Of a stretch of 64,000 nucleotides of DNA, positions 13,058 to 22,636 are shown in pieces. The position numbers and the translations under genes are program-made. Source of the DNA: Candidatus Collierbacteria bacterium (GTDB lineage Bacteria; Patescibacteriota; Microgenomatia; UBA1400; MFAQ01). The stretch is taken from NCBI GenBank assembly GCA_903886255.1, contig CAISLM010000014.1, forward strand, positions 13,562 through 77,561, given 5' to 3'. The stretch's first letter is position 1; each line of letters begins with the position of its first letter. The notes under the pieces were generated by a model. That model was given only the letters and a program-made list of their open reading frames with translations. It was not told where the DNA came from and searched no databases.

Positions 13058-15907
13058 ATGAGAGATTTGCGTGGGTTATTTTCGCCAAAATCCGTAACAA
13101 TAATTGGAGCATCGAAGTCCCCGGAAAAAGTAGGAGCAATCGTTTTAAAAAATATTATTGACTCCGGTTTCAAGGGAGCCGTGTACCCTGTTAATCCCAA
13201 AGAAACTGACATCTCCGGACTAAAGTGTTTCCCAAATGTAAATAGTCTCCCGGAAATTCCTGATTTGGCTGTGTTTGCTATTCCTTCTTCCGTTGCCATT
13301 GGTGTCCTGGAAGAAGTCGGAATAAAAGGCATAAAAAATGCAGTCATTTTTACCGCCGGATTTAAAGAGATTGGCAGAGAAGGGGAGATCTTAGAAAAAG
13401 AGCTTGTAGACGTTGCCAATAAATATCAAATTAATGTGTTGGGACCAAATTGTTTAGGATTTGCGAATAATAATTTGCCAATAAATGTTACCTTCGGACA
13501 AGTAGTCAAGGAACAAGGTAATCTTCGGATTATTTCTCAATCCGGAGCTATTGCTGCCAGTCTCTTTGATTGGTGTCAAACAACAAAGCTTGGATTTGGT
13601 GAATTCATCACAATCGGAAATAAAGCTGTAGTGACCGAAAATGACGTCTTAAATTACTGGGCGTCAAATCCTCAACCCATCATCGATCAGCCGGGAATTT
13701 CCAAAGTTTCACCTATTGGCTTATATTTAGAATCAATCGCCCAAGGCGAGGATTTTGTTAAAATCGCCACAGAAATTTCCAAAACAACACCCATATTTGC
13801 ACTTAAACCCGGTAAATCTATCGCAGCCGCATCAGCTATGCATTCGCACACCGGAGCTATCGCCGGTGTTGATAGCGTTCTTGACATCGCACTAAAACAG
13901 TCAGGGGTTATTCGATGTGCAGATTTAAATGTATTTTTTGATTTGGCGAGAGCCTTTTCTTGGGAAAATGTTCCTAAAGGCCCAAGAGTCGCTGTTGTAT
14001 CCAATGCCGGTGGTCCAGCTGTTCTTAGTACTGACTCTATTGAAGAATTTGGTTTACAAATGGCCCAGTTTGGATCAGAAACTCAAAAAAAATTAGCCGC
14101 CTTTTTGCCAAGGATGGCCAGCTTCCTTAATCCCGTTGATGTTTTGGGAGATGCTTTGGCAGACCGGTTTGGTCATGCCCTTGAAGCTGTTTTGCAGGAG
14201 CCGACTGTCGATGCCGCTATCGTCATTCTTACTCCTCAGTTAATGACTCAGATAGAAAAAACTGCCGAAATAATCGGCAATATGTCCGCCAAATTTTTTC
14301 AGCCGATTTTATGCTCATTTATTGGAGGAAGTTTGGCCGCGGTAGGAGAAAAAAAATTAAATGAATGTAAAATTCCTTCGTTCCCCTTTCCCGAAATGTC
14401 TATAAAAACACTTTCGTTGATGTGGAAATGGCAAGATTGGAGAAACAAAAACATCACTTTACCAACGCCCGAAGAATCTCTCTCTCAAAATACTGATACA
14501 GTAAAAAATATTTTATCTTCAGCCAGAGCCAATCGCCAACTAAATCTTGATAGCTTTGCGGCAAACGATGTCATGGTTGCCGCCGGGATCTCAACACCAC
14601 CCACACTCTCGGTGTCAGACTCATCCCAAGCACAGCAATTTGCCGACAAAGAAGGTTGGCCGGTCGTCCTAAAAATTTCGTCACCCAATCTATTACATAA
14701 GGCAGACGTTGGCGGGGTCATTGCACATATCCACAACACAAACGAGTTGTTGATTGCAGGAAATAAAATAATCCAACAAATTAGAACATTAGATCAGGAA
14801 ACAAAAAGTGGTGCCAAAATTCAAATTCAAAAAGAAATCATTGGCGGTGTCGAAGTAATCGTCGGAGTCAAAAGAGATCCTAATTTCGGACCGGTTATTT
14901 TGTTTGGAGCCGGAGGAAAATTCGCAGAGCTGCTGGTAGACAGGAACCTTCATCTTTTGCCTATCAACCGCGAGCAAGCCAAGCAATTAGTTGCCGGCTC
15001 AAAAGTTTATACGTTATTAAACGGATTCCGAGGGGATGAATCATACGATCTAGAGCCTTTGTACAGTACGATAATTCGTCTTGGACAGCTTGCTGAAATG
15101 GTCCCCGATATTGCTGAAATAGAAATCAATCCACTAATTATTACTCACAACGGAGTTTGGGCGGTAGACAGTAAGGTTGTCTTAACACAGCCAACCGACC
15201 GACCACTCAACATTCCTAAATTTAACTCTGCAACGGCTATTTCTCACAATATTCTTTCTCCAAATATTCACGAAATCGAGTTTCAAACTCAACTTCCAAT
15301 AGTAATCAAGTCCGGACAATTTATCAGTGTTAGAGTTAGTGATCAAAGAATCAACGCCTACTCAATCGCTGGGTCAACCGACCCAAATCATTTCCAACTA
15401 TTGATAGATGTCAGTCCTCAAGGCGTCGGTTCAAAATATTTTGAAAATTTGAAAGTAGGAGAAACAATTACTTTCTTAGGACCGGTCGGTTTATTTAATC
15501 TAAAGCCGGACGATGGCTCCCAACAACTTCTTTTCTTAGGAACAGGGTCGGGAATTGTTCCCCTGAAATTTATTATTGAAGATGCTCTAAAAAACAAAAA
15601 TATCACTCAACCAATCTCGCTTTATTTTGGCTTAAGATACAAAGAAGATATTTTTTGGCAAGATATTTTCGATGATTTAACCGGTAAATATCCCAATTTT
15701 CATTACAAACTTTGCTTGTCCAAACCAACGGAAGATTGGACAGGATACAAAGGGCATATCACCGACCTCGTTCACCAAGAGTTTCCTGACACTTCGCGAT
15801 GCGGTGCCTATTTGTGTGGCGGCAAGACAATGGTAGAAGAATCATCTAATATATTACTTAGCTCTGGTTGTCCGGCCGAAAGGATATATTCAGAAAAATT
15901 TAATTAA
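13058..15907 (+). CDS. acetate--CoA ligase (ADP-forming), fused alpha+beta, with C-terminal ferredoxin-NADP reductase-like FAD/NAD(P) domain
   Basis: N-terminal CoA-binding/ligase-CoA region (SVTIIGAS...VNP...NVLGPNCLG), central ATP-grasp-like part, C-terminal ~230 aa with FNR motifs RINAYSIAGS (RxYS), LFLGTGSGIVPL, YLCGGKTMVE, ERIYSEKF. Confidence 0.8.
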   Translation: MRDLRGLFSPKSVTIIGASKSPEKVGAIVLKNIIDSGFKGAVYPVNPKETDISGLKCFPNVNSLPEIPDLAVFAIPSSVAIGVLEEVGIKGIKNAVIFTAGFKEIGREGEILEKELVDVANKYQINVLGPNCLGFANNNLPINVTFGQVVKEQGNLRIISQSGAIAASLFDWCQTTKLGFGEFITIGNKAVVTENDVLNYWASNPQPIIDQPGISKVSPIGLYLESIAQGEDFVKIATEISKTTPIFALKPGKSIAAASAMHSHTGAIAGVDSVLDIALKQSGVIRCADLNVFFDLARAFSWENVPKGPRVAVVSNAGGPAVLSTDSIEEFGLQMAQFGSETQKKLAAFLPRMASFLNPVDVLGDALADRFGHALEAVLQEPTVDAAIVILTPQLMTQIEKTAEIIGNMSAKFFQPILCSFIGGSLAAVGEKKLNECKIPSFPFPEMSIKTLSLMWKWQDWRNKNITLPTPEESLSQNTDTVKNILSSARANRQLNLDSFAANDVMVAAGISTPPTLSVSDSSQAQQFADKEGWPVVLKISSPNLLHKADVGGVIAHIHNTNELLIAGNKIIQQIRTLDQETKSGAKIQIQKEIIGGVEVIVGVKRDPNFGPVILFGAGGKFAELLVDRNLHLLPINREQAKQLVAGSKVYTLLNGFRGDESYDLEPLYSTIIRLGQLAEMVPDIAEIEINPLIITHNGVWAVDSKVVLTQPTDRPLNIPKFNSATAISHNILSPNIHEIEFQTQLPIVIKSGQFISVRVSDQRINAYSIAGSTDPNHFQLLIDVSPQGVGSKYFENLKVGETITFLGPVGLFNLKPDDGSQQLLFLGTGSGIVPLKFIIEDALKNKNITQPISLYFGLRYKEDIFWQDIFDDLTGKYPNFHYKLCLSKPTEDWTGYKGHITDLVHQEFPDTSRCGAYLCGGKTMVEESSNILLSSGCPAERIYSEKFN

Positions 15908-15916
15908 ATCATATTT

Positions 15917-17635
15917 ATGTCAAATAAAGTCTACTCAATAAAAATAGGAGGAATGGCGGGTCAAGGTATAAAAAGTGCCGGATTAAATTTTGCCAAAGTT
16001 GCAGCCAGATCAGGTTATAACATCTACAACTATATTGAGTACCCTTCATTAATCAGGGGTGGCCACAATGTTATGCAAACTACTTTCTCTTTGGATGAGG
16101 TTCATTCACAGATTCAGTCTGTTGATTTTTTAATTGCTCTCAATCAAGAAACAATTAACCTTCATAAAGACGAATTAGTTTCAGGAGCAGGTATCATCTT
16201 TGAAGACGAAGGGAAAATTGATGCAACCGCCTGTAAAGACAAATGCCGACTTTTCGCAGTCCCTCTAAAAAAACTGGCCACTGAAGCCGGAGGTCAGGAA
16301 ATAGTTTCAAACAATGTTGCTCTTGGAGCATCTATTTCCTTAATGGGAGGAGACATAAAATATCTATTCGACTTAATCGATGAGGATTTTTCTTTCAAAC
16401 CGGAAATTGCCGAAATAAATAAAAAAGCTGCTCAATCCGGTTATGAATATGCCCAAACAAATTTCCCCAATAAATTTGATTCGTTGCTTACACCCCAAAA
16501 AAACGCCAATAAAAAAATTGTAGTCAATGGTACTGATGGAGTGGCCTTCGGTGCAATTGCGGCCGGACTTCAATATACAGCTATATATCCCATGTCACCG
16601 ACCTCAAACATTCTAACCATTCTCGCCGCCAATCAACGCGAATATGGATATATATACAAACAAGCAGAAGATGAAATTGCTGCCATAAATATGTCTCTTG
16701 GAGCCTCTTTTGCCGGAGCAAGAGCTATGACAACCACATCTGGTGGCGGGTTTTGTCTTATGACCGAAGGTTTTGGCTTAGCTGGGCAAACTGAAACGCC
16801 TATTGTCATTGTCGAGGGCATGAGAGGAGGCCCCGGTACCGGTTTGCCAACCTGGAGTGAACAGGGTGACTTGCGTATGGTGCTTCACGCGCACCAAGGT
16901 GAATTTCCCAGAATCGTAGTTGCCGCAGGCGATGCAGAGGAAGCTTTCCATCAAATAATGCTCGCCTTTAATCTTGCCGAAAAGTATCAAACGCCTGTTG
17001 TACTTTTGGTAGATAAAAATATTTTGGACGATGAACAAACATTCCCTAAATTCGACTATTCTTCATATCAGATTAATCGTGGCAAGATGGTCAGAGAAAA
17101 GGATCCTGAATACCACCGCTATGTCGTTACAGATGACGGCATTTCTCCTAGAACCATTCCGGGAGTAGGAAATCACCTTGTCGCCAATTCTGATGAACAT
17201 AACTCCTATGGTTATTCCAGCGAAACAATCTCCGACCGAAATGAACAAGTTCAAAAAAGATTGAGAAAACTAGAAACCTGTGCCAAAGAAGATATGGGAA
17301 AACCCATACTTTTTGGTCCTGAAAATGCAGAGATAACTATTGTTTCCTGGGGTAGTTGCAAAGGACCAATTTTGGAGGCTATGAAGGATTATCCCTTTGT
17401 AAATTACCTTCACATAAATTGGATTAATCCGTTCCCGGCAGACGCAATTAAAGCCATTCTTTCACGTTCCACGTACCTTTTAGATATCGAGTGCAACAGC
17501 ACGGCTCAGATGGCTGGTTTAATTAGGGAAAAAACGGGTATTGACATACTTGATAGATTTTTAAAGAACGACGGCCGTCCATTTTTCCCGGAAGAGATTA
17601 AAGATAAAATTAACAGTATTATAAAAACACGATGA
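15917..17635 (+). CDS. 2-oxoacid:ferredoxin oxidoreductase subunit alpha (gamma-alpha fused)
   Basis: N-terminal POR/KOR gamma-type domain (GGMAGQGIKSAG), then the alpha domain (TDGVAFGAIAAG...PMSPTS...GGGFCLMTEG). Confidence 0.85.
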   Translation: MSNKVYSIKIGGMAGQGIKSAGLNFAKVAARSGYNIYNYIEYPSLIRGGHNVMQTTFSLDEVHSQIQSVDFLIALNQETINLHKDELVSGAGIIFEDEGKIDATACKDKCRLFAVPLKKLATEAGGQEIVSNNVALGASISLMGGDIKYLFDLIDEDFSFKPEIAEINKKAAQSGYEYAQTNFPNKFDSLLTPQKNANKKIVVNGTDGVAFGAIAAGLQYTAIYPMSPTSNILTILAANQREYGYIYKQAEDEIAAINMSLGASFAGARAMTTTSGGGFCLMTEGFGLAGQTETPIVIVEGMRGGPGTGLPTWSEQGDLRMVLHAHQGEFPRIVVAAGDAEEAFHQIMLAFNLAEKYQTPVVLLVDKNILDDEQTFPKFDYSSYQINRGKMVREKDPEYHRYVVTDDGISPRTIPGVGNHLVANSDEHNSYGYSSETISDRNEQVQKRLRKLETCAKEDMGKPILFGPENAEITIVSWGSCKGPILEAMKDYPFVNYLHINWINPFPADAIKAILSRSTYLLDIECNSTAQMAGLIREKTGIDILDRFLKNDGRPFFPEEIKDKINSIIKTR

Positions 17636-18489
17636 TAACCGCTGCAGAATTAGCCACTCCAAATTTTCCGAACTGGTGCCCGGGTTGTGGCAACTTTGGT
17701 ATTTGGGCTGCTTTTAAAAACGCCGCCGTCACATCAGACTGGGACAATACAAATACCGCTTTTGTCGCCGGCATAGGCTGCCATGGGCATATGGTCAATT
17801 TTGTTAAACTTACCTCGTTCGAGGGACTGCACGGAAGACCAATTCCTGTGGCAACAGGAATAAAGATGGCTAATCACAGATTAAATGTTTTTGTTTTTAC
17901 CGGTGATGGCGATTGTCTCGGTGAAGGCGGAAATCATTTTATCAACGCAGCCCGGAGAAATCACAACATTACAGTCCTCTTACACAACAATAATATTTAT
18001 GGTCTGACCACCGGCCAAACCTCTCCCACCACCAGGAAAGATTTCCCAACCAAATCCACCCCGGACGGCAATCCCGATGAACCGTTTAAAGTTTTAAATC
18101 TGGCCATCGCCGCCGGAGCCACTTTTGCAGCCAGGGTCTACGCCAATGATATTGCCGGTCTTTCGGCCATGATCATTAAAGCTAATGAGCATCAGGGATT
18201 TTCTGTCGTGGAAATGCTCCAGCCCTGCATTACCTTCAACAAAGAATGTTCTCCCACTTTCTTTACGGATAATACTTATAAACTTCCCGATTCTTACGAT
18301 CCGACCAATATTGCTGCCGCTCTAGAAAAAACCTTGGAATTCGGTGAAAAACAAATTCCGGTAGGACTATTTTATAAAGTTGACAAACCAACTGCCGAAT
18401 CAGAATTTCCTCAGATAGATGCAAAGCCTTTAGTTGATAATCAAGTTGAAAAAAGAGATGTTTCCGAACTTTTGCAAACCCTTTATTAA
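17632..18489 (+). CDS. 2-oxoacid:ferredoxin oxidoreductase subunit beta (TPP-binding)
   Basis: WCPGCGNFG...GIGCHG...FTGDGDCLGEGGNHF TPP/Mg-binding pattern. ATGA overlap with the alpha subunit. Confidence 0.85.
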   Translation: MITAAELATPNFPNWCPGCGNFGIWAAFKNAAVTSDWDNTNTAFVAGIGCHGHMVNFVKLTSFEGLHGRPIPVATGIKMANHRLNVFVFTGDGDCLGEGGNHFINAARRNHNITVLLHNNNIYGLTTGQTSPTTRKDFPTKSTPDGNPDEPFKVLNLAIAAGATFAARVYANDIAGLSAMIIKANEHQGFSVVEMLQPCITFNKECSPTFFTDNTYKLPDSYDPTNIAAALEKTLEFGEKQIPVGLFYKVDKPTAESEFPQIDAKPLVDNQVEKRDVSELLQTLY

Positions 18490-18541: not shown

Positions 18542-18805
18542 ATGGATAATCAAACGCCAGCAACAGATAAAGAAGTCATGGTCGGTAAATACAAAGTTAA
18601 AGTTGTTCGCAATATGTGCATCGGAGCAGCCACTTGTGTCGCAGTAGCCGCCGCCAATTTTCAGCTGGATTCGGAAAACAAAGCAGTCCCGGCAGAAGGA
18701 GGAGCCGATTTGGAAGCAGCGGTTCTTTTGGCCGCCCAATCATGTCCCACCAAAGCCATTGTGATTATTGATACCACCACCGGCAAACAAGTCTGGCCCG
18801 ACTAA
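18542..18805 (+). CDS. small single-cluster ferredoxin
   Basis: CIGAATC...CP spacing typical of mono-cluster [3Fe/4Fe-4S] ferredoxins. The real start is possibly the internal MVGKYKV (~18578). Confidence 0.6.
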   Translation: MDNQTPATDKEVMVGKYKVKVVRNMCIGAATCVAVAAANFQLDSENKAVPAEGGADLEAAVLLAAQSCPTKAIVIIDTTTGKQVWPD

Positions 18806-19527
18806 ATACTTTCAGCCACCTTCCTTGTCCAAAACCTAAGCCTTTCGCTTTGATTTTGTGTGAGTTTGGCAGCCAAATAACCTAGATGGACCGCGATATC
18901 ATTTCCAATGTTCAGCCCATGGGTTAGATCAGGATCAATTCGCACCTCTTGTTTTCTGGAATTTACTTCATATTTACCATCGTTTTTGACATTTATAATT
19001 TCTCTCTCCACGGATGCCTTCGCATTATTTGTATCTAGTGCTATTACTTTTCCATATGCCACCATACAGTTATTTATTCTATTTTCCTTTTCCGCATTTT
19101 CATAATCGGCTGCTGCAATTAAAATTACCTGTGAAAGGTGGGTTAAATATAATTTTTCCGGCAGTTGTTTTTCAAGGCCTTTTGCAAATCCGCCCGGCAG
19201 TTGTTTTTCATATTGATCTACTAACGCCTCTCCAGCATTATCGGCAGCTATTTCAGTTAGATCTTCACCCAGCCAATACGACTCAACAACATGTTCGTCA
19301 AACATATCCAAGCCACTAGTTTGAGAAATTGCTCTAAGAAAAGCATTCAAATGTGGAAAACCATGGTTGCAAAGAGTTTCTCTAACCAAATCGTAATCTA
19401 ATTCTTTTTCCGATACGAGGTTCCTTAATATTACCTGGCTAGCATCCTCTCCACAAAAACCCCACATATTTGGCTGTATTGCAAATCTCGCAGCATTTTC
19501 CAGTCCATCCATTATATTTTCCTTCAT
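18802..19527 (-). CDS. hypothetical protein; C-terminal ~95 aa resembles a HypC/HupF-like beta-barrel
   Basis: CMVAYGKVIALD...EVRIDPDLTHGLNIGNDIAVHLGYLAAKL parallels the HypC consensus (MCLAIPxKVIxID...VxLxLVP...VGDYVLVHVGFA). Its Cys is internal, not N-terminal. Confidence 0.45.
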   Translation of the reverse strand: MKENIMDGLENAARFAIQPNMWGFCGEDASQVILRNLVSEKELDYDLVRETLCNHGFPHLNAFLRAISQTSGLDMFDEHVVESYWLGEDLTEIAADNAGEALVDQYEKQLPGGFAKGLEKQLPEKLYLTHLSQVILIAAADYENAEKENRINNCMVAYGKVIALDTNNAKASVEREIINVKNDGKYEVNSRKQEVRIDPDLTHGLNIGNDIAVHLGYLAAKLTQNQSERLRFWTRKVAESI

Positions 19528-19564: not shown

Positions 19565-19963
19565 ATGAATATCTTAGTTTTTGGCAACCAAGACCACCCT
19601 GATGATAATCTTGCATTTAAAGTCTCGGAAAAACTAAGCGGCTTAGCCAATATTTCCTTTCAGGTCATTAATCCAAATTCAGATATTCCACTTCCGGACA
19701 ATAAAAAGATATATCTAATCGACACAGTAGTCGGAATTGATAATGTGACACTTATTACGGAAAATGATCTCAATAAAATACTTCTCTCTCCAAGAACAAC
19801 CGCACATGATTATGACTTGGGATTTCAACTCAAATATTTAACAAAAATTGGCAAAATAAAAAAAGTCTTCATTATCGGCTTGCCCATTAGCGGAAATGTG
19901 GATTACGATCTAATCCACTTGATCTTAAGAAAGTTGGTTGCGCAAGACATGCAAGGATCATAA
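19565..19963 (+). CDS. hydrogenase maturation endopeptidase (HycI/HoxW/HybD family)
   Basis: MNILVFGNQDHPDDNLAFKV N-terminus matches the family ILVLGxGNxLxxDDGxGxxV. Its 3' end overlaps the large-subunit 3' end by 61 nt (convergent). Confidence 0.7.
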   Translation: MNILVFGNQDHPDDNLAFKVSEKLSGLANISFQVINPNSDIPLPDNKKIYLIDTVVGIDNVTLITENDLNKILLSPRTTAHDYDLGFQLKYLTKIGKIKKVFIIGLPISGNVDYDLIHLILRKLVAQDMQGS

Positions 19964-21204
19964 GCTCGTATTATCTTTTCGGCGTTTAATTTCAAAGTTT
20001 GTTCATCTTTATCCAGGTTTGCTCCGAAATATTTTTTAAGATCGTTTTCTATGTTAATTTGGTTTTGTGCCGTCGGTACAATCACGTCGTAGTTTTTTAT
20101 TCTGCCCTTACTGTCAGTTTCAACATGATGATATAGTGTTCCTCTCGGAGCTTCTACAACCCCAACTCCTACACCTGCTTTTGGGGGCTGGGTAATTGGT
20201 TTTTCTTCCACTAATTTTATCGATTTTAATATTTCGATCGAATCGTCTACACAATTAAGTATTTCGATAGCTTGAGCCAAATTATTGTGATAAACGTTAT
20301 TTGAAGGAAATATGTCCAAATATTTTGCCGCATCTGTTTTAGTTCTTTGATTCAACAGTTCTTTTTCCAAATTTATTCTGGCTAGAGCCCCCACTAAATA
20401 ATCATCGTGTGTATCGGAAAAGATATAACCTTCCGACTGAGAATAAGGAATAATTACAGAATGTAGAAAATCGTGAAAATGTTCTTCCGTAGTGATTCTG
20501 CCACTACTATTAACAATATTTCCTTCCAAGAAATCATAATGATCGGAATTTTTTAAGCAAAGATAGTCTGAATTTCTCACGAGAACATCCGGCATTTTTG
20601 AAAAAGCTTCAATACCTCTTAATACTTGAACACGAATTTTTTCCAGTCGATCAATCATTGTTGGGAATAACGAGGGATCAGGCATCTTTAAGAATCCTCC
20701 CACTGTCGGAAGTGGCGCATGAATAGCTGCTCCGGAGATCATAACCGAAAGATCGGATCCGACCTCCTTTATGTCAAACGAGTCGTGTAACAATTGGTGG
20801 CCGAGATTTCCGTCTTCGTCCGGAATATCCAATATTGAATCGATACCCAGCAGATCCGGCAATACAAAAAAATATAAGTGGAGTGCATGATCACGTATCA
20901 TCAAGCCGTTGTAGGTTAATCTTCTCAGTAATTTTGTCTGATCTGAAGGAATAATTCCTTGAGATTTTTCAATCGCCTCAATGGAGCAAAGCAAATGGGC
21001 TATCGAACAAGTTCCGCAGATTCTCGAAATAAATGAAGGAACTGCCACAAAAGGTTTTCCTTCGACTGCTTTTGCATAGAAACGTCGATAATCCTTAATC
21101 ATAAATTTCAGATCAACTACCTTATCATCTACTATTTTTACCTTCAAACCGGCCGTGCCTTCGATCTTAGTAATATTTTCGATCGTGATATCTGCTGTAT
21201 GCAT
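19903..21204 (-). CDS. [NiFe] hydrogenase large subunit (433 aa, short group 3/4-like form)
   Basis: L1 motif RICGTCSIAH near the N-terminus and L2 motif DPCMSCATN with a 9-aa C-terminal extension. Confidence 0.85.
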   Translation of the reverse strand: MHTADITIENITKIEGTAGLKVKIVDDKVVDLKFMIKDYRRFYAKAVEGKPFVAVPSFISRICGTCSIAHLLCSIEAIEKSQGIIPSDQTKLLRRLTYNGLMIRDHALHLYFFVLPDLLGIDSILDIPDEDGNLGHQLLHDSFDIKEVGSDLSVMISGAAIHAPLPTVGGFLKMPDPSLFPTMIDRLEKIRVQVLRGIEAFSKMPDVLVRNSDYLCLKNSDHYDFLEGNIVNSSGRITTEEHFHDFLHSVIIPYSQSEGYIFSDTHDDYLVGALARINLEKELLNQRTKTDAAKYLDIFPSNNVYHNNLAQAIEILNCVDDSIEILKSIKLVEEKPITQPPKAGVGVGVVEAPRGTLYHHVETDSKGRIKNYDVIVPTAQNQINIENDLKKYFGANLDKDEQTLKLNAEKIIRAYDPCMSCATNFLKIKWIRS

Positions 21205-21209
21205 TATTT

Positions 21210-21698
21210 TTAAATTATGTTAAACAATTTTAAATATTTATCGACTATTTTGACAAATATATCCGGATTCATCGGACAACCATTAACTTCATCATCTACC
21301 TTTACGAAATCGGAAATCTTTTGTACATCCTTACTGTAGTCGAAGTGACACATATAAAATGCAATCTTGTAATTAATTTCTTCAGGCATAAAAGCATTCC
21401 TGCTGGATGAAGGTTGTCCTGTGCATGCACAAGCACCGATCGTTACCAAATATTTACAATTCTCTCTAATTTTCTTTAAATCCGCTTCTTGTAATTCTGA
21501 TGAGATTGCACCTTCTACAAAAGCAACATCCAAACCCTCAATGCTATTATTGGTTTTTAAAGCTTTGAAATGCTGAAAATCAATCACTTTTTTCCATTCG
21601 TCCAGATGTCTATTAAGCATTTCTGTCAGTAGGATTGTGCTGTCTTCACAACAAGTAAACGAAAACCAGCCAATTTTAAGTTTCTGTTTATTATCCAT
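21210..21698 (-). CDS. [NiFe] hydrogenase small subunit, minimal (proximal-cluster domain only)
   Basis: FTCCEDS, GACACTGQP, GCPMNP are the proximal [4Fe-4S] ligands. Only ~160 aa with no medial/distal cluster domain. Start chosen at MDNKQK; the ORF track extends to 21791. Confidence 0.7.
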   Translation of the reverse strand: MDNKQKLKIGWFSFTCCEDSTILLTEMLNRHLDEWKKVIDFQHFKALKTNNSIEGLDVAFVEGAISSELQEADLKKIRENCKYLVTIGACACTGQPSSSRNAFMPEEINYKIAFYMCHFDYSKDVQKISDFVKVDDEVNGCPMNPDIFVKIVDKYLKLFNII

Positions 21699-21715
21699 GC
21701 TAATATCCATTATAT

Positions 21716-21925
21716 ATGTGTCTAGCATACCCAGGAATAGTAAAAGAAATAAATGGTTTAAAAGCAACTGTCGAATATCCATCTTTTTCAAAAAATGTGC
21801 TGGTAGGCGACCAATATGTAAAGGTTGGGGACAGGGTATTGGTTCAAATGGGGATAATCATAAAAACTATTTCCACAAAAGAGTCCAAGCTAATCACAAA
21901 AGCGTGGGATGAAATTTCAAAATAA
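21716..21925 (+). CDS. hypC: hydrogenase maturation factor HypC/HupF
   Basis: MCLAYPGIVKEINGLKATV...VKVGDRVLVQMGIIIK matches HypC, with Cys2 N-terminal after Met removal. Confidence 0.8.
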   Translation: MCLAYPGIVKEINGLKATVEYPSFSKNVLVGDQYVKVGDRVLVQMGIIIKTISTKESKLITKAWDEISK

Positions 21926-22636
21926 TTAAAATCCTCTAGCATCTCTAAGCGCCTTTATGTTCATTTGAATTCTCGTAAATGCGGTTACCGAACTGTATAA
22001 ATAAAATTTATTATTTTTTTTGGCATCAGAAGGCAAGTCTCTTGGCTTTGCATATATCCTCACCTTACCAATATCCAAAAGCATCAGATACCAACTTGAA
22101 TCAGCATTAACAACAATGTGAAATGGTCCGTCAGGCATTAGTTCAATGCCTGACTTATTTGCCAAATAGAGAATATTCTCCGCTTCTTCTTGAAGCATTT
22201 TTCGAGGGATCTTTACAAACTCCTTATCCATAGGAAAAGTATCCCTTACCTCGGAAGCATCGATCTTTTGATCATAAACACTGGTCACCTCGTCGGCAGA
22301 CAGGTTTGTTGTTGCTACAGTGTTATCATCGACTTTTCGAACAGTTGGGACGACAGTAAATCCACGTTCTCTTAAAGTCTTCCACGCCAAATCATAAGTA
22401 TCCGAGTATGAGAGCGATCTATCAAAGTCGAAACCGGTCAGAGTCGGCAAACAAAAATCTTCGACCTTTCTAGTTAGTACACTAGCTTTATGTTTTTCTC
22501 CAAGATCAAAATATATAAAACTTTTATTTTCTGCGGCTTGTCTTGTTTTTGGAATATGATATTCGAATCTAATAGGGAAAACCGACACTTTTTCCGGAAG
22601 TCCAAATTTTTTCAAATTTATTGATTTTTCTACCAT
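21926..22636 (-). CDS. hypothetical protein
   Basis: 236-aa ORF with no recognised motif. Tightly packed between hypC and ppdK. Confidence 0.45.
   Translation of the reverse strand: MVEKSINLKKFGLPEKVSVFPIRFEYHIPKTRQAAENKSFIYFDLGEKHKASVLTRKVEDFCLPTLTGFDFDRSLSYSDTYDLAWKTLRERGFTVVPTVRKVDDNTVATTNLSADEVTSVYDQKIDASEVRDTFPMDKEFVKIPRKMLQEEAENILYLANKSGIELMPDGPFHIVVNADSSWYLMLLDIGKVRIYAKPRDLPSDAKKNNKFYLYSSVTAFTRIQMNIKALRDARGF

What the first reader, a model, noticed from the sequence alone, without database searches (positions are those of the whole stretch)
18802..19527. Hypothetical protein whose C-terminal third looks like a HypC domain with an internal (non-N-terminal) cysteine
The 241-aa protein divergent from the hydrogenase maturation protease ends with CMVAYGKVIALD...VRIDPDL...GLNIGNDIAVHLGYLAAKL. 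This tracks the HypC/HupF consensus (MCLAIPxKVIxID...LVP...VGDYVLVHVGFA) almost position by position. It sits behind a ~145-aa N-terminal domain of unknown function, so the essential Cys2 would not be N-terminal. A genuine hypC exists 2 kb away. This could be a HypC-derived chaperone/scaffold paralogue specialised for the minimal hydrogenase.
Basis: inference. Interest (0 to 1): 0.5.

Follow-up and report, generated by a model that had tools for sequence, protein, structure and literature searches.

The report
HypC-like hydrogenase maturation factor, internal cysteine
This gene encodes a member of an uncharacterised but widespread protein family (DUF6390) whose C-terminal third is a true relative of the hydrogenase-assembly chaperone HypC, fused behind a new helical domain so that HypC's normally N-terminal cysteine is internal; the family almost always sits beside [NiFe]-hydrogenase genes in ultra-small bacteria and archaea.

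Summary
ORF 18802-19527(-) encodes 241 aa and matches Pfam DUF6390 end to end.

**Family.** There are at least 543 clusters at 50% identity, nearly all full-length two-domain proteins, in Patescibacteria and at least one Micrarchaeota archaeon. Cys25, His130, Cys154 and His214 are all present in 288 of 297 members. The N-domain (eight helices) has no structural relative.

**Genomic context (13 independent loci).**
- A stand-alone hypC lies next door in 13/13, and none of the 12 inspected has the canonical His51.
- [NiFe] small and large subunit genes are adjacent in 12/13.
- An EamA transporter gene is adjacent in 9/13.
- hypB/D/E/F appear in 0/13.

**Best reading.** It is a HypC-family maturation factor with a composite Cys2His2 metal site, working together with the His-less HypC. 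It is not specific to the "minimal" hydrogenase. The mechanism is inferred, not shown. No paper mentions DUF6390.

The parts
18802..19527 (-). DUF6390 gene (241 aa): two-domain HypC-like hydrogenase accessory protein
   Evidence: ORF. PF19927 E 1.6e-21, 77.3 bits, covering residues 7-236. AF2 model pLDDT 90.6, pTM 0.89.
19069..19527 (-). N-terminal all-helical domain (residues 1-153) carrying near-invariant Cys25 (19453-19455) and invariant His130 (19138-19140)
18802..19068 (-). C-terminal HypC-homologous OB-fold domain plus terminal helix (residues 154-241). Cys154 (19066-19068) is the HypC Cys2 equivalent and His214 (18886-18888) the HypC His51 equivalent.
21716..21925 (+). Stand-alone hypC (69 aa), the presumed partner. 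It keeps Met-Cys but has Gln at the His51 position (VLVQMG).
   Evidence: PF01455 E 8.9e-12, 45.4 bits. Sequence and alignment. A hypC lies next to DUF6390 in 13/13 loci.
19903..21204 (-). [NiFe]-hydrogenase large subunit (433 aa), the presumed client. All four cofactor cysteines are present (RICGTCSIAH, DPCMSC), followed by a 9-residue C-terminal tail.
   Evidence: PF00374 E 1.8e-27. Best NCBIfam match is the group-3b sulfhydrogenase alpha subunit, below the equivalog cut-off. Motifs.
21210..21698 (-). Minimal [NiFe]-hydrogenase small subunit. The likely start is Met32 of the 193-aa ORF, giving 162 aa as in relatives.
   Evidence: PF01058 E 3.6e-18. Orthologues are 162-169 aa in L001, L004 and L008. 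The choice of start is an inference.
19565..19963 (+). Protease-like gene (132 aa), divergent from the DUF6390 gene. Probable large-subunit C-terminal endopeptidase.
   Evidence: Weak HycI hit, E 0.0081, below cut-off. It is conserved in 7/13 loci. It is present in all six loci whose large subunit was seen to carry a C-terminal extension, and absent from the five whose large subunit ends at DPCxxCxxH.

Best explanation
The gene encodes a DUF6390-family protein, which is a [NiFe]-hydrogenase maturation accessory factor of the HypC superfamily.

Its C-terminal domain (residues 154-241) is a HypC OB-fold. It keeps both residues that handle the iron in HypC: Cys2 as Cys154 and His51 as His214.

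An N-terminal eight-helix domain of new fold is rigidly packed onto it. This makes the cysteine internal, and it contributes a further near-invariant Cys25 and an invariant His130. In most of the family His130 lies in a His-rich PHHSFHV helix.

The most likely mechanism (inferred) is that these four residues form one composite Cys2His2 metal site. That site would hold the iron, or its Fe(CN)2CO form, destined for the hydrogenase large subunit. The N-domain would play, within one chain, the role that a second protein (HypD Cys41) plays for ordinary HypC. The protein would act together with the adjacent stand-alone HypC, which in these clusters has lost His51 and so probably keeps only the large-subunit chaperone function.

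Shown: HypC homology, residue register and conservation, the conserved fusion, and the gene linkage.
Inferred: metal binding, which metal, and the division of labour with HypC.
For: Homology and fold:
- hhalign 96.4% (E 1.1e-9) against 8 HypCs and 91.5% against E. coli HypC, with Cys154=Cys2 and His214=His51; controls <=0.7%.
- 23/24 homologues hit PF01455, and three reach the gathering score.
- The top three PDB profile hits are HypC.

Conservation:
- Cys25 291/297, His130 297/297, Cys154 293/297, His214 297/297; the full quartet in 288/297.
- The fusion is conserved in at least 543 clusters.
- pTM is 0.89. Helix 144-154 is ordered only when the OB domain is present, which indicates a fixed interface.
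- His130 and Cys154 sit at the same end of an antiparallel helix hairpin (130-141 and 144-154). Their proximity is an inference.

Context:
- hypC adjacent in 13/13 loci and [NiFe] subunits in 12/13. The gene lies inside the hydrogenase operon in L009, L012, L013, L015 and L016.
- Partner HypCs have Gln (10), Asn (1) or another residue (1) at the His51 position, and never His.

The roles of HypC C2 and H51 and of HypD C41 are taken from the review PMC12134894.
Against: - No coordinates were available, so the spatial clustering of the four residues was not measured. Cys25 lies in a low-confidence loop (pLDDT <50 at residues 20-26).
- The window protein itself fails the curated HypC models.
- A Cys2His2 site with a His-rich helix would suit Ni or Zn as well as Fe.
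- An internal Cys lacks the free N-terminal amine of mature HypC, and the attached domain should block the canonical HypD docking mode. The chemistry may therefore differ from HypC's.
- Two close homologues have Asp at position 154.
- There is no experimental or literature support.
Confidence: 0.6

Rival explanations
1. It is a nickel (not iron) metallochaperone. The Cys2His2 / His-rich site would store or deliver Ni to the large subunit, substituting for HypB/SlyD-type functions that are not encoded nearby. It might receive the metal from the co-transcribed EamA-family transporter.
For: - The His-rich PHHSFHV helix plus Cys/His quartet resembles Ni/Zn sites.
- No hypB was found in about 277 kb around 13 loci.
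- hypA is absent from the window clade.
- The EamA gene overlaps the DUF6390 start in five loci, with a 4-nt gap in L007.
Against: - The conserved residues on the OB domain are exactly the iron-handling pair of HypC.
- HypA co-occurs with DUF6390 in 5-6 loci, so it is not a HypA replacement.
- EamA-type transporters are not established Ni importers (own knowledge).
- The window clade lacks the EamA partner.
Confidence: 0.15
2. It replaces the HypC-HypD scaffold. In genome-reduced Patescibacteria and DPANN archaea, DUF6390 together with the His-less HypC would build or carry the Fe site without HypD, and perhaps without HypE/F.
For: - No hypD/E/F was found in the 64-kb window or in any +-10 kb flank of 12 other loci, whereas hypC (and often hypA) are always adjacent.
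- The N-domain supplies a Cys next to the HypC-like Cys, as HypD Cys41 does (and PMC12134894).
Against: - hyp genes are often scattered in other organisms, and whole genomes could not be inspected.
- The N-domain has no [4Fe-4S] cysteine motif and no similarity to HypD.
- The large subunits keep all four Cys ligands, so they presumably still need CN/CO ligands, for which no alternative source is evident.
Confidence: 0.12
3. It is a stable structural or regulatory subunit of the hydrogenase, not a transient maturation factor. For example, it could be a HypC-derived lid that remains bound.
For: The gene lies directly upstream of the small-subunit gene, inside the structural operon, in L009, L012, L013, L015 and L016.
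Against: - In the window clade it is transcribed separately and divergently.
- The invariant Cys/His pair of HypC argues for cofactor handling.
- Maturation genes (hypC, hypA) are interleaved in the same operons.
Confidence: 0.06
4. The similarity is a chance or generic OB-fold resemblance, or the HypC-like part is made separately from an internal start.
- The window protein alone has no PF01455 hit.
- Met155 directly follows the Cys and is invariant in the close clade.
Against: - Sequence-profile evidence is independent of fold.
- The Cys/His register, the C-terminal helix and the gene neighbourhood all match HypC.
- Met155 is Arg in 161/297 members.
- An internal start would lose the Cys.
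- The C-terminal-only entry that was looked up (P0080) is a contig-edge fragment.
- Promoter-like sites are not above the shuffle expectation.
Confidence: 0.03

Closest known systems
HypC / HybG (PF01455, TIGR00074), [NiFe]-hydrogenase Fe(CN)2CO chaperone
   Same: Homologous OB-fold plus C-terminal helix. The Cys2 and His51 equivalents are conserved and in register. The gene is encoded next to [NiFe]-hydrogenase genes.
   Different: - HypC is a 70-90 aa stand-alone protein whose Cys becomes the N-terminal residue. Here the Cys is residue 154, behind a 153-aa helical domain.
- There is an extra insertion between strands 2 and 3.
- The window protein is below the curated family thresholds.
- It co-exists with, rather than replaces, a stand-alone HypC.
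HupF / HoxL (HypC paralogues of O2-tolerant hydrogenase systems)
   Same: An additional HypC-family paralogue with an appended region, dedicated to a particular hydrogenase and working alongside HypC (PMC12134894).
   Different: - HupF's extension is C-terminal and short, and its N-terminal Cys is retained.
- HupF occurs in Pseudomonadota with HupK/HoxV.
- DUF6390 has an N-terminal folded domain and occurs in anaerobic Patescibacteria and DPANN with group-3-type enzymes.
HypC-HypD scaffold complex
   Same: A HypC Cys/His pair is complemented by a Cys (and His) from a second module to make a shared metal site. This is the proposed analogy.
   Different: - HypD is a separate 370-aa alpha/beta [4Fe-4S] protein with CGxHxH, GPGCPVC and GFETT motifs.
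- The DUF6390 N-domain is all-helical, has one conserved Cys, has no Fe-S motif and shows no detectable similarity.
Pfam DUF6390 (PF19927)
   Same: The protein is a full-length member (77.3 bits against a cut-off of 25).
   Different: The family is catalogued only as 'unknown function'. The HypC homology of its C-terminal part, the Cys-His-Cys-His signature and the hydrogenase/hypC/EamA linkage are not described in any searchable paper.

Membership tests
DUF6390 (PF19927) | Full-length match above Pfam's gathering score | tested here: met
   77.3 bits against a cut-off of 25, E 1.6e-21, residues 7-236 on profile positions 4-232 of 244. All 24 homologues match.
HypC/HupF (PF01455, TIGR00074) | Match to the curated family model at its threshold | tested here: not met
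   The window protein has no PF01455 or TIGR00074 hit at E<=1. Among relatives, P0003 (29.6 bits), P0030 (28.8) and P0060 (30.5) pass the 28.5-bit cut-off; the others score 15-27 bits.
HypC/HupF (PF01455, TIGR00074) | Homology of the domain (profile-profile) and an OB-fold barrel plus C-terminal helix | tested here: met
HypC/HupF (PF01455, TIGR00074) | Cysteine at position 2, N-terminal after Met removal (essential C2) | tested here: not met
   The homologous Cys is residue 154, internal in all full-length members (293/297 conserved). The role of C2 is from PMC12134894.
HypC/HupF (PF01455, TIGR00074) | Conserved histidine (E. coli H51) in the GDxVLVHxG motif | tested here: met
   His214 is present in 297/297 members, within GDxV[SA]xHWG, and aligns to E. 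coli H51.
HypC/HupF (PF01455, TIGR00074) | Small stand-alone single-domain protein (about 70-100 aa) | tested here: not met
   241 aa in two domains. The fusion is conserved in nearly all of the 150 best representatives.
HypC/HupF (PF01455, TIGR00074) | Binds HypD and the large-subunit precursor, and carries Fe(CN)2CO | not testable with these tools
   Needs biochemistry. Only gene linkage to the large subunit (12/13 loci) was shown.
HupF subfamily | C-terminal extension on a HypC core with retained N-terminal Cys | tested here: not met
   The extension here is N-terminal. The C-terminus ends with the HypC-type helix.
HypD | Alpha/beta fold with CGxHxH, GPGCPVC and [4Fe-4S] cysteine motifs | tested here: not met

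The most novel reading that the evidence does not exclude
In Patescibacteria and DPANN archaea, DUF6390 together with a His51-less HypC (and, in most lineages, a translationally coupled EamA-family transporter) constitutes a streamlined route for assembling or acquiring the hydrogenase iron site. This route would not use the canonical HypD scaffold and possibly not HypE/F. If so, the 'universal' six-protein Hyp pathway would not be universal.
Probability: 0.12. Interest if true: 0.85.

Novelty: new variant of a known kind. Interest (0 to 1): 0.6.

Why it matters
HypC's N-terminal cysteine is treated as a defining, essential feature of [NiFe]-hydrogenase maturation. This work describes a large natural family (at least 500 sequence clusters) that keeps the HypC iron-handling Cys/His pair but buries the Cys inside a two-domain protein.

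The family adds a second conserved Cys/His pair from a new domain. It is always paired with a HypC that has lost the histidine.

That gives a testable handle on three questions:
- how the iron site is held during assembly;
- whether the free N-terminus matters;
- how genome-reduced, uncultured bacteria and archaea mature their hydrogenases, given that no hypD/E/F was found near any of 13 clusters.

It also gives a functional annotation to a Pfam DUF.

Tried and rejected
- Direct BLASTP of the protein against the local HypC gave no alignment.
- Single-sequence Pfam, NCBIfam and PDB searches gave no HypC hit. Only profile and structure methods reveal the relationship.
- The afdb50 fold library was unavailable.
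- The reference-genome scan returned only one locus, so taxonomy rests on a few source names.
- Internal translation start at Met155: rejected.
- Short C-terminal-only database entries as stand-alone versions: rejected for P0080, which starts 13 bp from a contig end. P0054 was not looked up.
- The promoter/terminator scan around the gene was not above the shuffle expectation.
- Rfam found only two tRNAs in the window and no metal riboswitch.
- Literature searches for DUF6390, for Patescibacteria/DPANN with HypC, and for CPR with hypD/E/F found nothing relevant.
- hhalign of the protease-like family against the single E. coli HycI sequence failed (2%). Its assignment rests on a weak Pfam hit and on co-occurrence.

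Full report
**1. What is at the coordinates**

ORF 18802-19527 on the minus strand encodes 241 aa. It is divergent from a 132-aa gene at 19565-19963, with 37 bp between them. It converges on a small ferredoxin gene (18542-18805).

The quoted C-terminal sequence is present. From the DNA, Cys154 is codon 19066-19068 (followed by Met155 at 19063-19065) and His214 is codon 18886-18888.

Neighbouring genes:
- a [NiFe]-hydrogenase large subunit (19903-21204, minus strand; its best NCBIfam match is the group-3b sulfhydrogenase alpha subunit, below the equivalog cut-off);
- a minimal small subunit (21210-21698 or 21791, minus strand);
- a bona fide hypC (21716-21925, plus strand; PF01455 E 8.9e-12).

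**2. Family assignment**

The whole protein matches Pfam DUF6390 (PF19927, 77.3 bits against a cut-off of 25, residues 7-236). Alone, it has no NCBIfam hit, no PF01455 hit at E<=1, no BLASTP alignment to the local HypC and no PDB sequence match.

**3. Is the C-terminal third HypC-like?**

Yes. Four independent lines support this.

(a) Single-sequence scans. Twenty-three of 24 close homologues (46-74% identical) hit PF01455 individually, the best at 7.5e-7. Three family members exceed Pfam's own 28.5-bit gathering score (P0003, P0030, P0060).

(b) Profile against PDB sequences. The top three hits of the family profile are HypC entries 3d3r, 2z1c and 3vyr (E about 0.05).

(c) Profile-profile comparison. 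hhalign of residues 146-241 (176 sequences) against eight stand-alone HypCs taken from this window and related loci gives 96.4% probability, E 1.1e-9. Against the single E. coli HypC sequence it gives 91.5%, E 8.5e-7. Both alignments place Cys154 on Cys2 and His214 on His51. One reversed alignment, 20 column-shuffled HypC alignments and the N-domain all score <=0.7%.

(d) Structure. The AF2 model (pLDDT 90.6, pTM 0.89) has helices up to residue 154, then five strands and a terminal helix.
- The best Foldseek PDB hits are T. kodakarensis HypC (2z1c, 3vyr, 3vyt; TM up to 0.85 normalised to HypC; 26-27% identity).

**4. The N-terminal domain**

Helix 144-154 is confident in the full-length model but disordered when the OB domain is removed. 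This suggests a fixed domain interface.

**5. Breadth and conservation**

A profile search of 1.84 billion representatives finds 543 clusters at E<=1e-3 and 294 at E<=1e-10. Nearly all are 220-260 aa and cover the full profile. The word-index search finds 497 clusters at 90% identity. The C-terminal-only entry that was looked up (P0080) is a contig-edge fragment.

Named sources are Patescibacteria (including Nealsonbacteria and Zambryskibacteria) and one Micrarchaeota archaeon.

In 297 distinct members:

| Residue | Present in |
|---|---|
| His130 | 297/297 |
| His214 | 297/297 |
| Cys154 | 293/297 |
| Cys25 | 291/297 |
| All four together | 288/297 |

The family motifs are PNxLG[FY]CGP, PHHSFHV, DxC[RM]IxWGKV and GDxV[SA]xHWG. 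Met155 is Arg in 161/297, so there is no conserved internal start.

**6. Genomic context**

Thirteen independent loci were examined: the window, L001, L003, L004, L005, L007, L008, L009, L010, L012, L013, L015 and L016.

- A stand-alone hypC lies within 3 kb in 13/13.
- [NiFe] small and large subunit genes are adjacent in 12/13. The exception, L007, is a truncated contig.
- An orthologous EamA-family transporter gene is adjacent in 9/13. Its end overlaps the DUF6390 start by 14-29 nt in seven of them.
- hypA is present in 5-6 loci.
- A protease-like gene is present in 7 loci.
- E. coli HypB, HypD, HypE and HypF find nothing in about 277 kb, which includes the whole 64-kb window. Window ORFs of the right sizes are unrelated proteins.

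The linked hydrogenases are of three kinds:
- the two-subunit minimal type (window, L001, L003, L004, L008);
- the four-subunit group-3b type (L005, L009, L010, L013, L015);
- one cluster with NuoE/F/G-like genes (L012).

The protein is therefore not specific to the minimal enzyme.

**7. The partner HypC**

All 12 inspected partner HypCs start with Met-Cys. At the His51 position they carry Gln (10), Asn (1) or another residue (1), and never His. By contrast, the E. coli, T. kodakarensis and Shewanella HypCs have His there. According to the 2025 review PMC12134894, C2 is essential and H51 is a probable iron ligand, together with HypD C41.

**8. Mechanism (inference)**

The HypC-type Cys/His pair is kept in DUF6390 and lost in the neighbouring HypC. 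A second conserved Cys/His pair comes from the fused domain.

His130 and Cys154 lie at the same end of a helix hairpin, and Cys154 and His214 are neighbours in the HypC fold. I therefore propose a composite Cys2His2 site that holds the iron (or its Fe(CN)2CO form) for the large subunit, with the His-less HypC acting mainly as large-subunit chaperone.

The rivals are a nickel chaperone, a HypD-independent scaffold, a permanent subunit, or chance resemblance. They are listed with their tests.

**9. Novelty**

The family exists in Pfam as a DUF, and a few JGI entries are auto-named 'hydrogenase maturation factor'. No searchable paper mentions DUF6390 or such a fusion. The review lists only the C-terminally extended HupF as a HypC variant. 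I rate it a new variant of a known kind.

Noticed in passing
window 21716-21925 (+); also hypC genes in L001, L004, L005, L007, L008, L009, L010, L012, L013, L015, L016: Every stand-alone HypC next to a DUF6390 gene keeps the Met-Cys start but lacks the canonical His51. Ten have Gln (VLVQMG), one has Asn and one another residue; none of 12 has His. DUF6390 keeps that His in 297/297 members. This looks like a division of labour or co-evolution between the two paralogues.
   Followed up: partly
L005 9109-10014, L008 9133-10029, L010 9052-10014, L012 9106-10014, L013 9100-10014, L015 9100-10014, L016 9106-10029; L007 9082-9996; L004 10676-11611: An orthologous EamA (DMT-superfamily) transporter gene is adjacent to DUF6390 in 9/13 loci. 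It usually ends 14-29 nt inside the DUF6390 start, which suggests translational coupling, in the order hypC-eamA-DUF6390-small subunit. It is absent from the window and its closest relatives. Its substrate and its role in hydrogenase maturation are unknown.
   Followed up: partly
window 19565-19963 (+) and 19903-21204 (-): The 132-aa protease-like gene has only a weak HycI hit. It is present in the six loci whose large subunit was seen to carry a tail after DPCxxCxx[H/N], and absent in the five loci whose large subunit ends at ...CxxH. In the window, L001 and L004 the usual cleavage-site His is Asn (DPCMSCATN|FLKIKWIRS). The 3' ends of the two convergent genes overlap by 55-65 nt in the window, L003, L004 and L008.
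   Followed up: partly
window 21210-21791 (-): The hydrogenase small subunit is minimal: about 162 aa if it starts at Met32 of the ORF, with an Oxidored_q6 domain only. In four-subunit relatives it is 246-329 aa. The longer TTG-start ORF would overlap hypC by 76 nt, so the short form is more likely. No beta or gamma subunit genes are adjacent.
   Followed up: partly
window 13058-15907 (+): A 949-aa fusion of an ADP-forming acetyl-CoA synthetase (CoA-binding / ATP-grasp domains) with a C-terminal FNR-like NAD-binding domain. It is followed by 2-oxoacid:ferredoxin oxidoreductase alpha and beta genes (15917-18489) and a ferredoxin gene (18542-18805). The fusion and the ferredoxin are conserved next to DUF6390 in L001. 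The FNR-like module may stand in for the missing hydrogenase gamma subunit.
   Followed up: no
window 21926-22636 (-): A 236-aa ORF directly downstream of hypC has no Pfam or NCBIfam hit and no counterpart in any of the related loci.
   Followed up: no
L012 11700-12548: A Peptidase_M10 (metzincin) gene is inserted between the hydrogenase small- and large-subunit genes in a NuoE/F/G-linked cluster that lacks the usual protease-like gene.
   Followed up: no
window 18802-19527 (-), start codon: The public gene call for this protein (P0001) is 236 aa and starts at Met6. The MKE... start used here is conserved among close homologues (M1 and E3 nearly invariant), so the 241-aa form is more likely.
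   Followed up: partly
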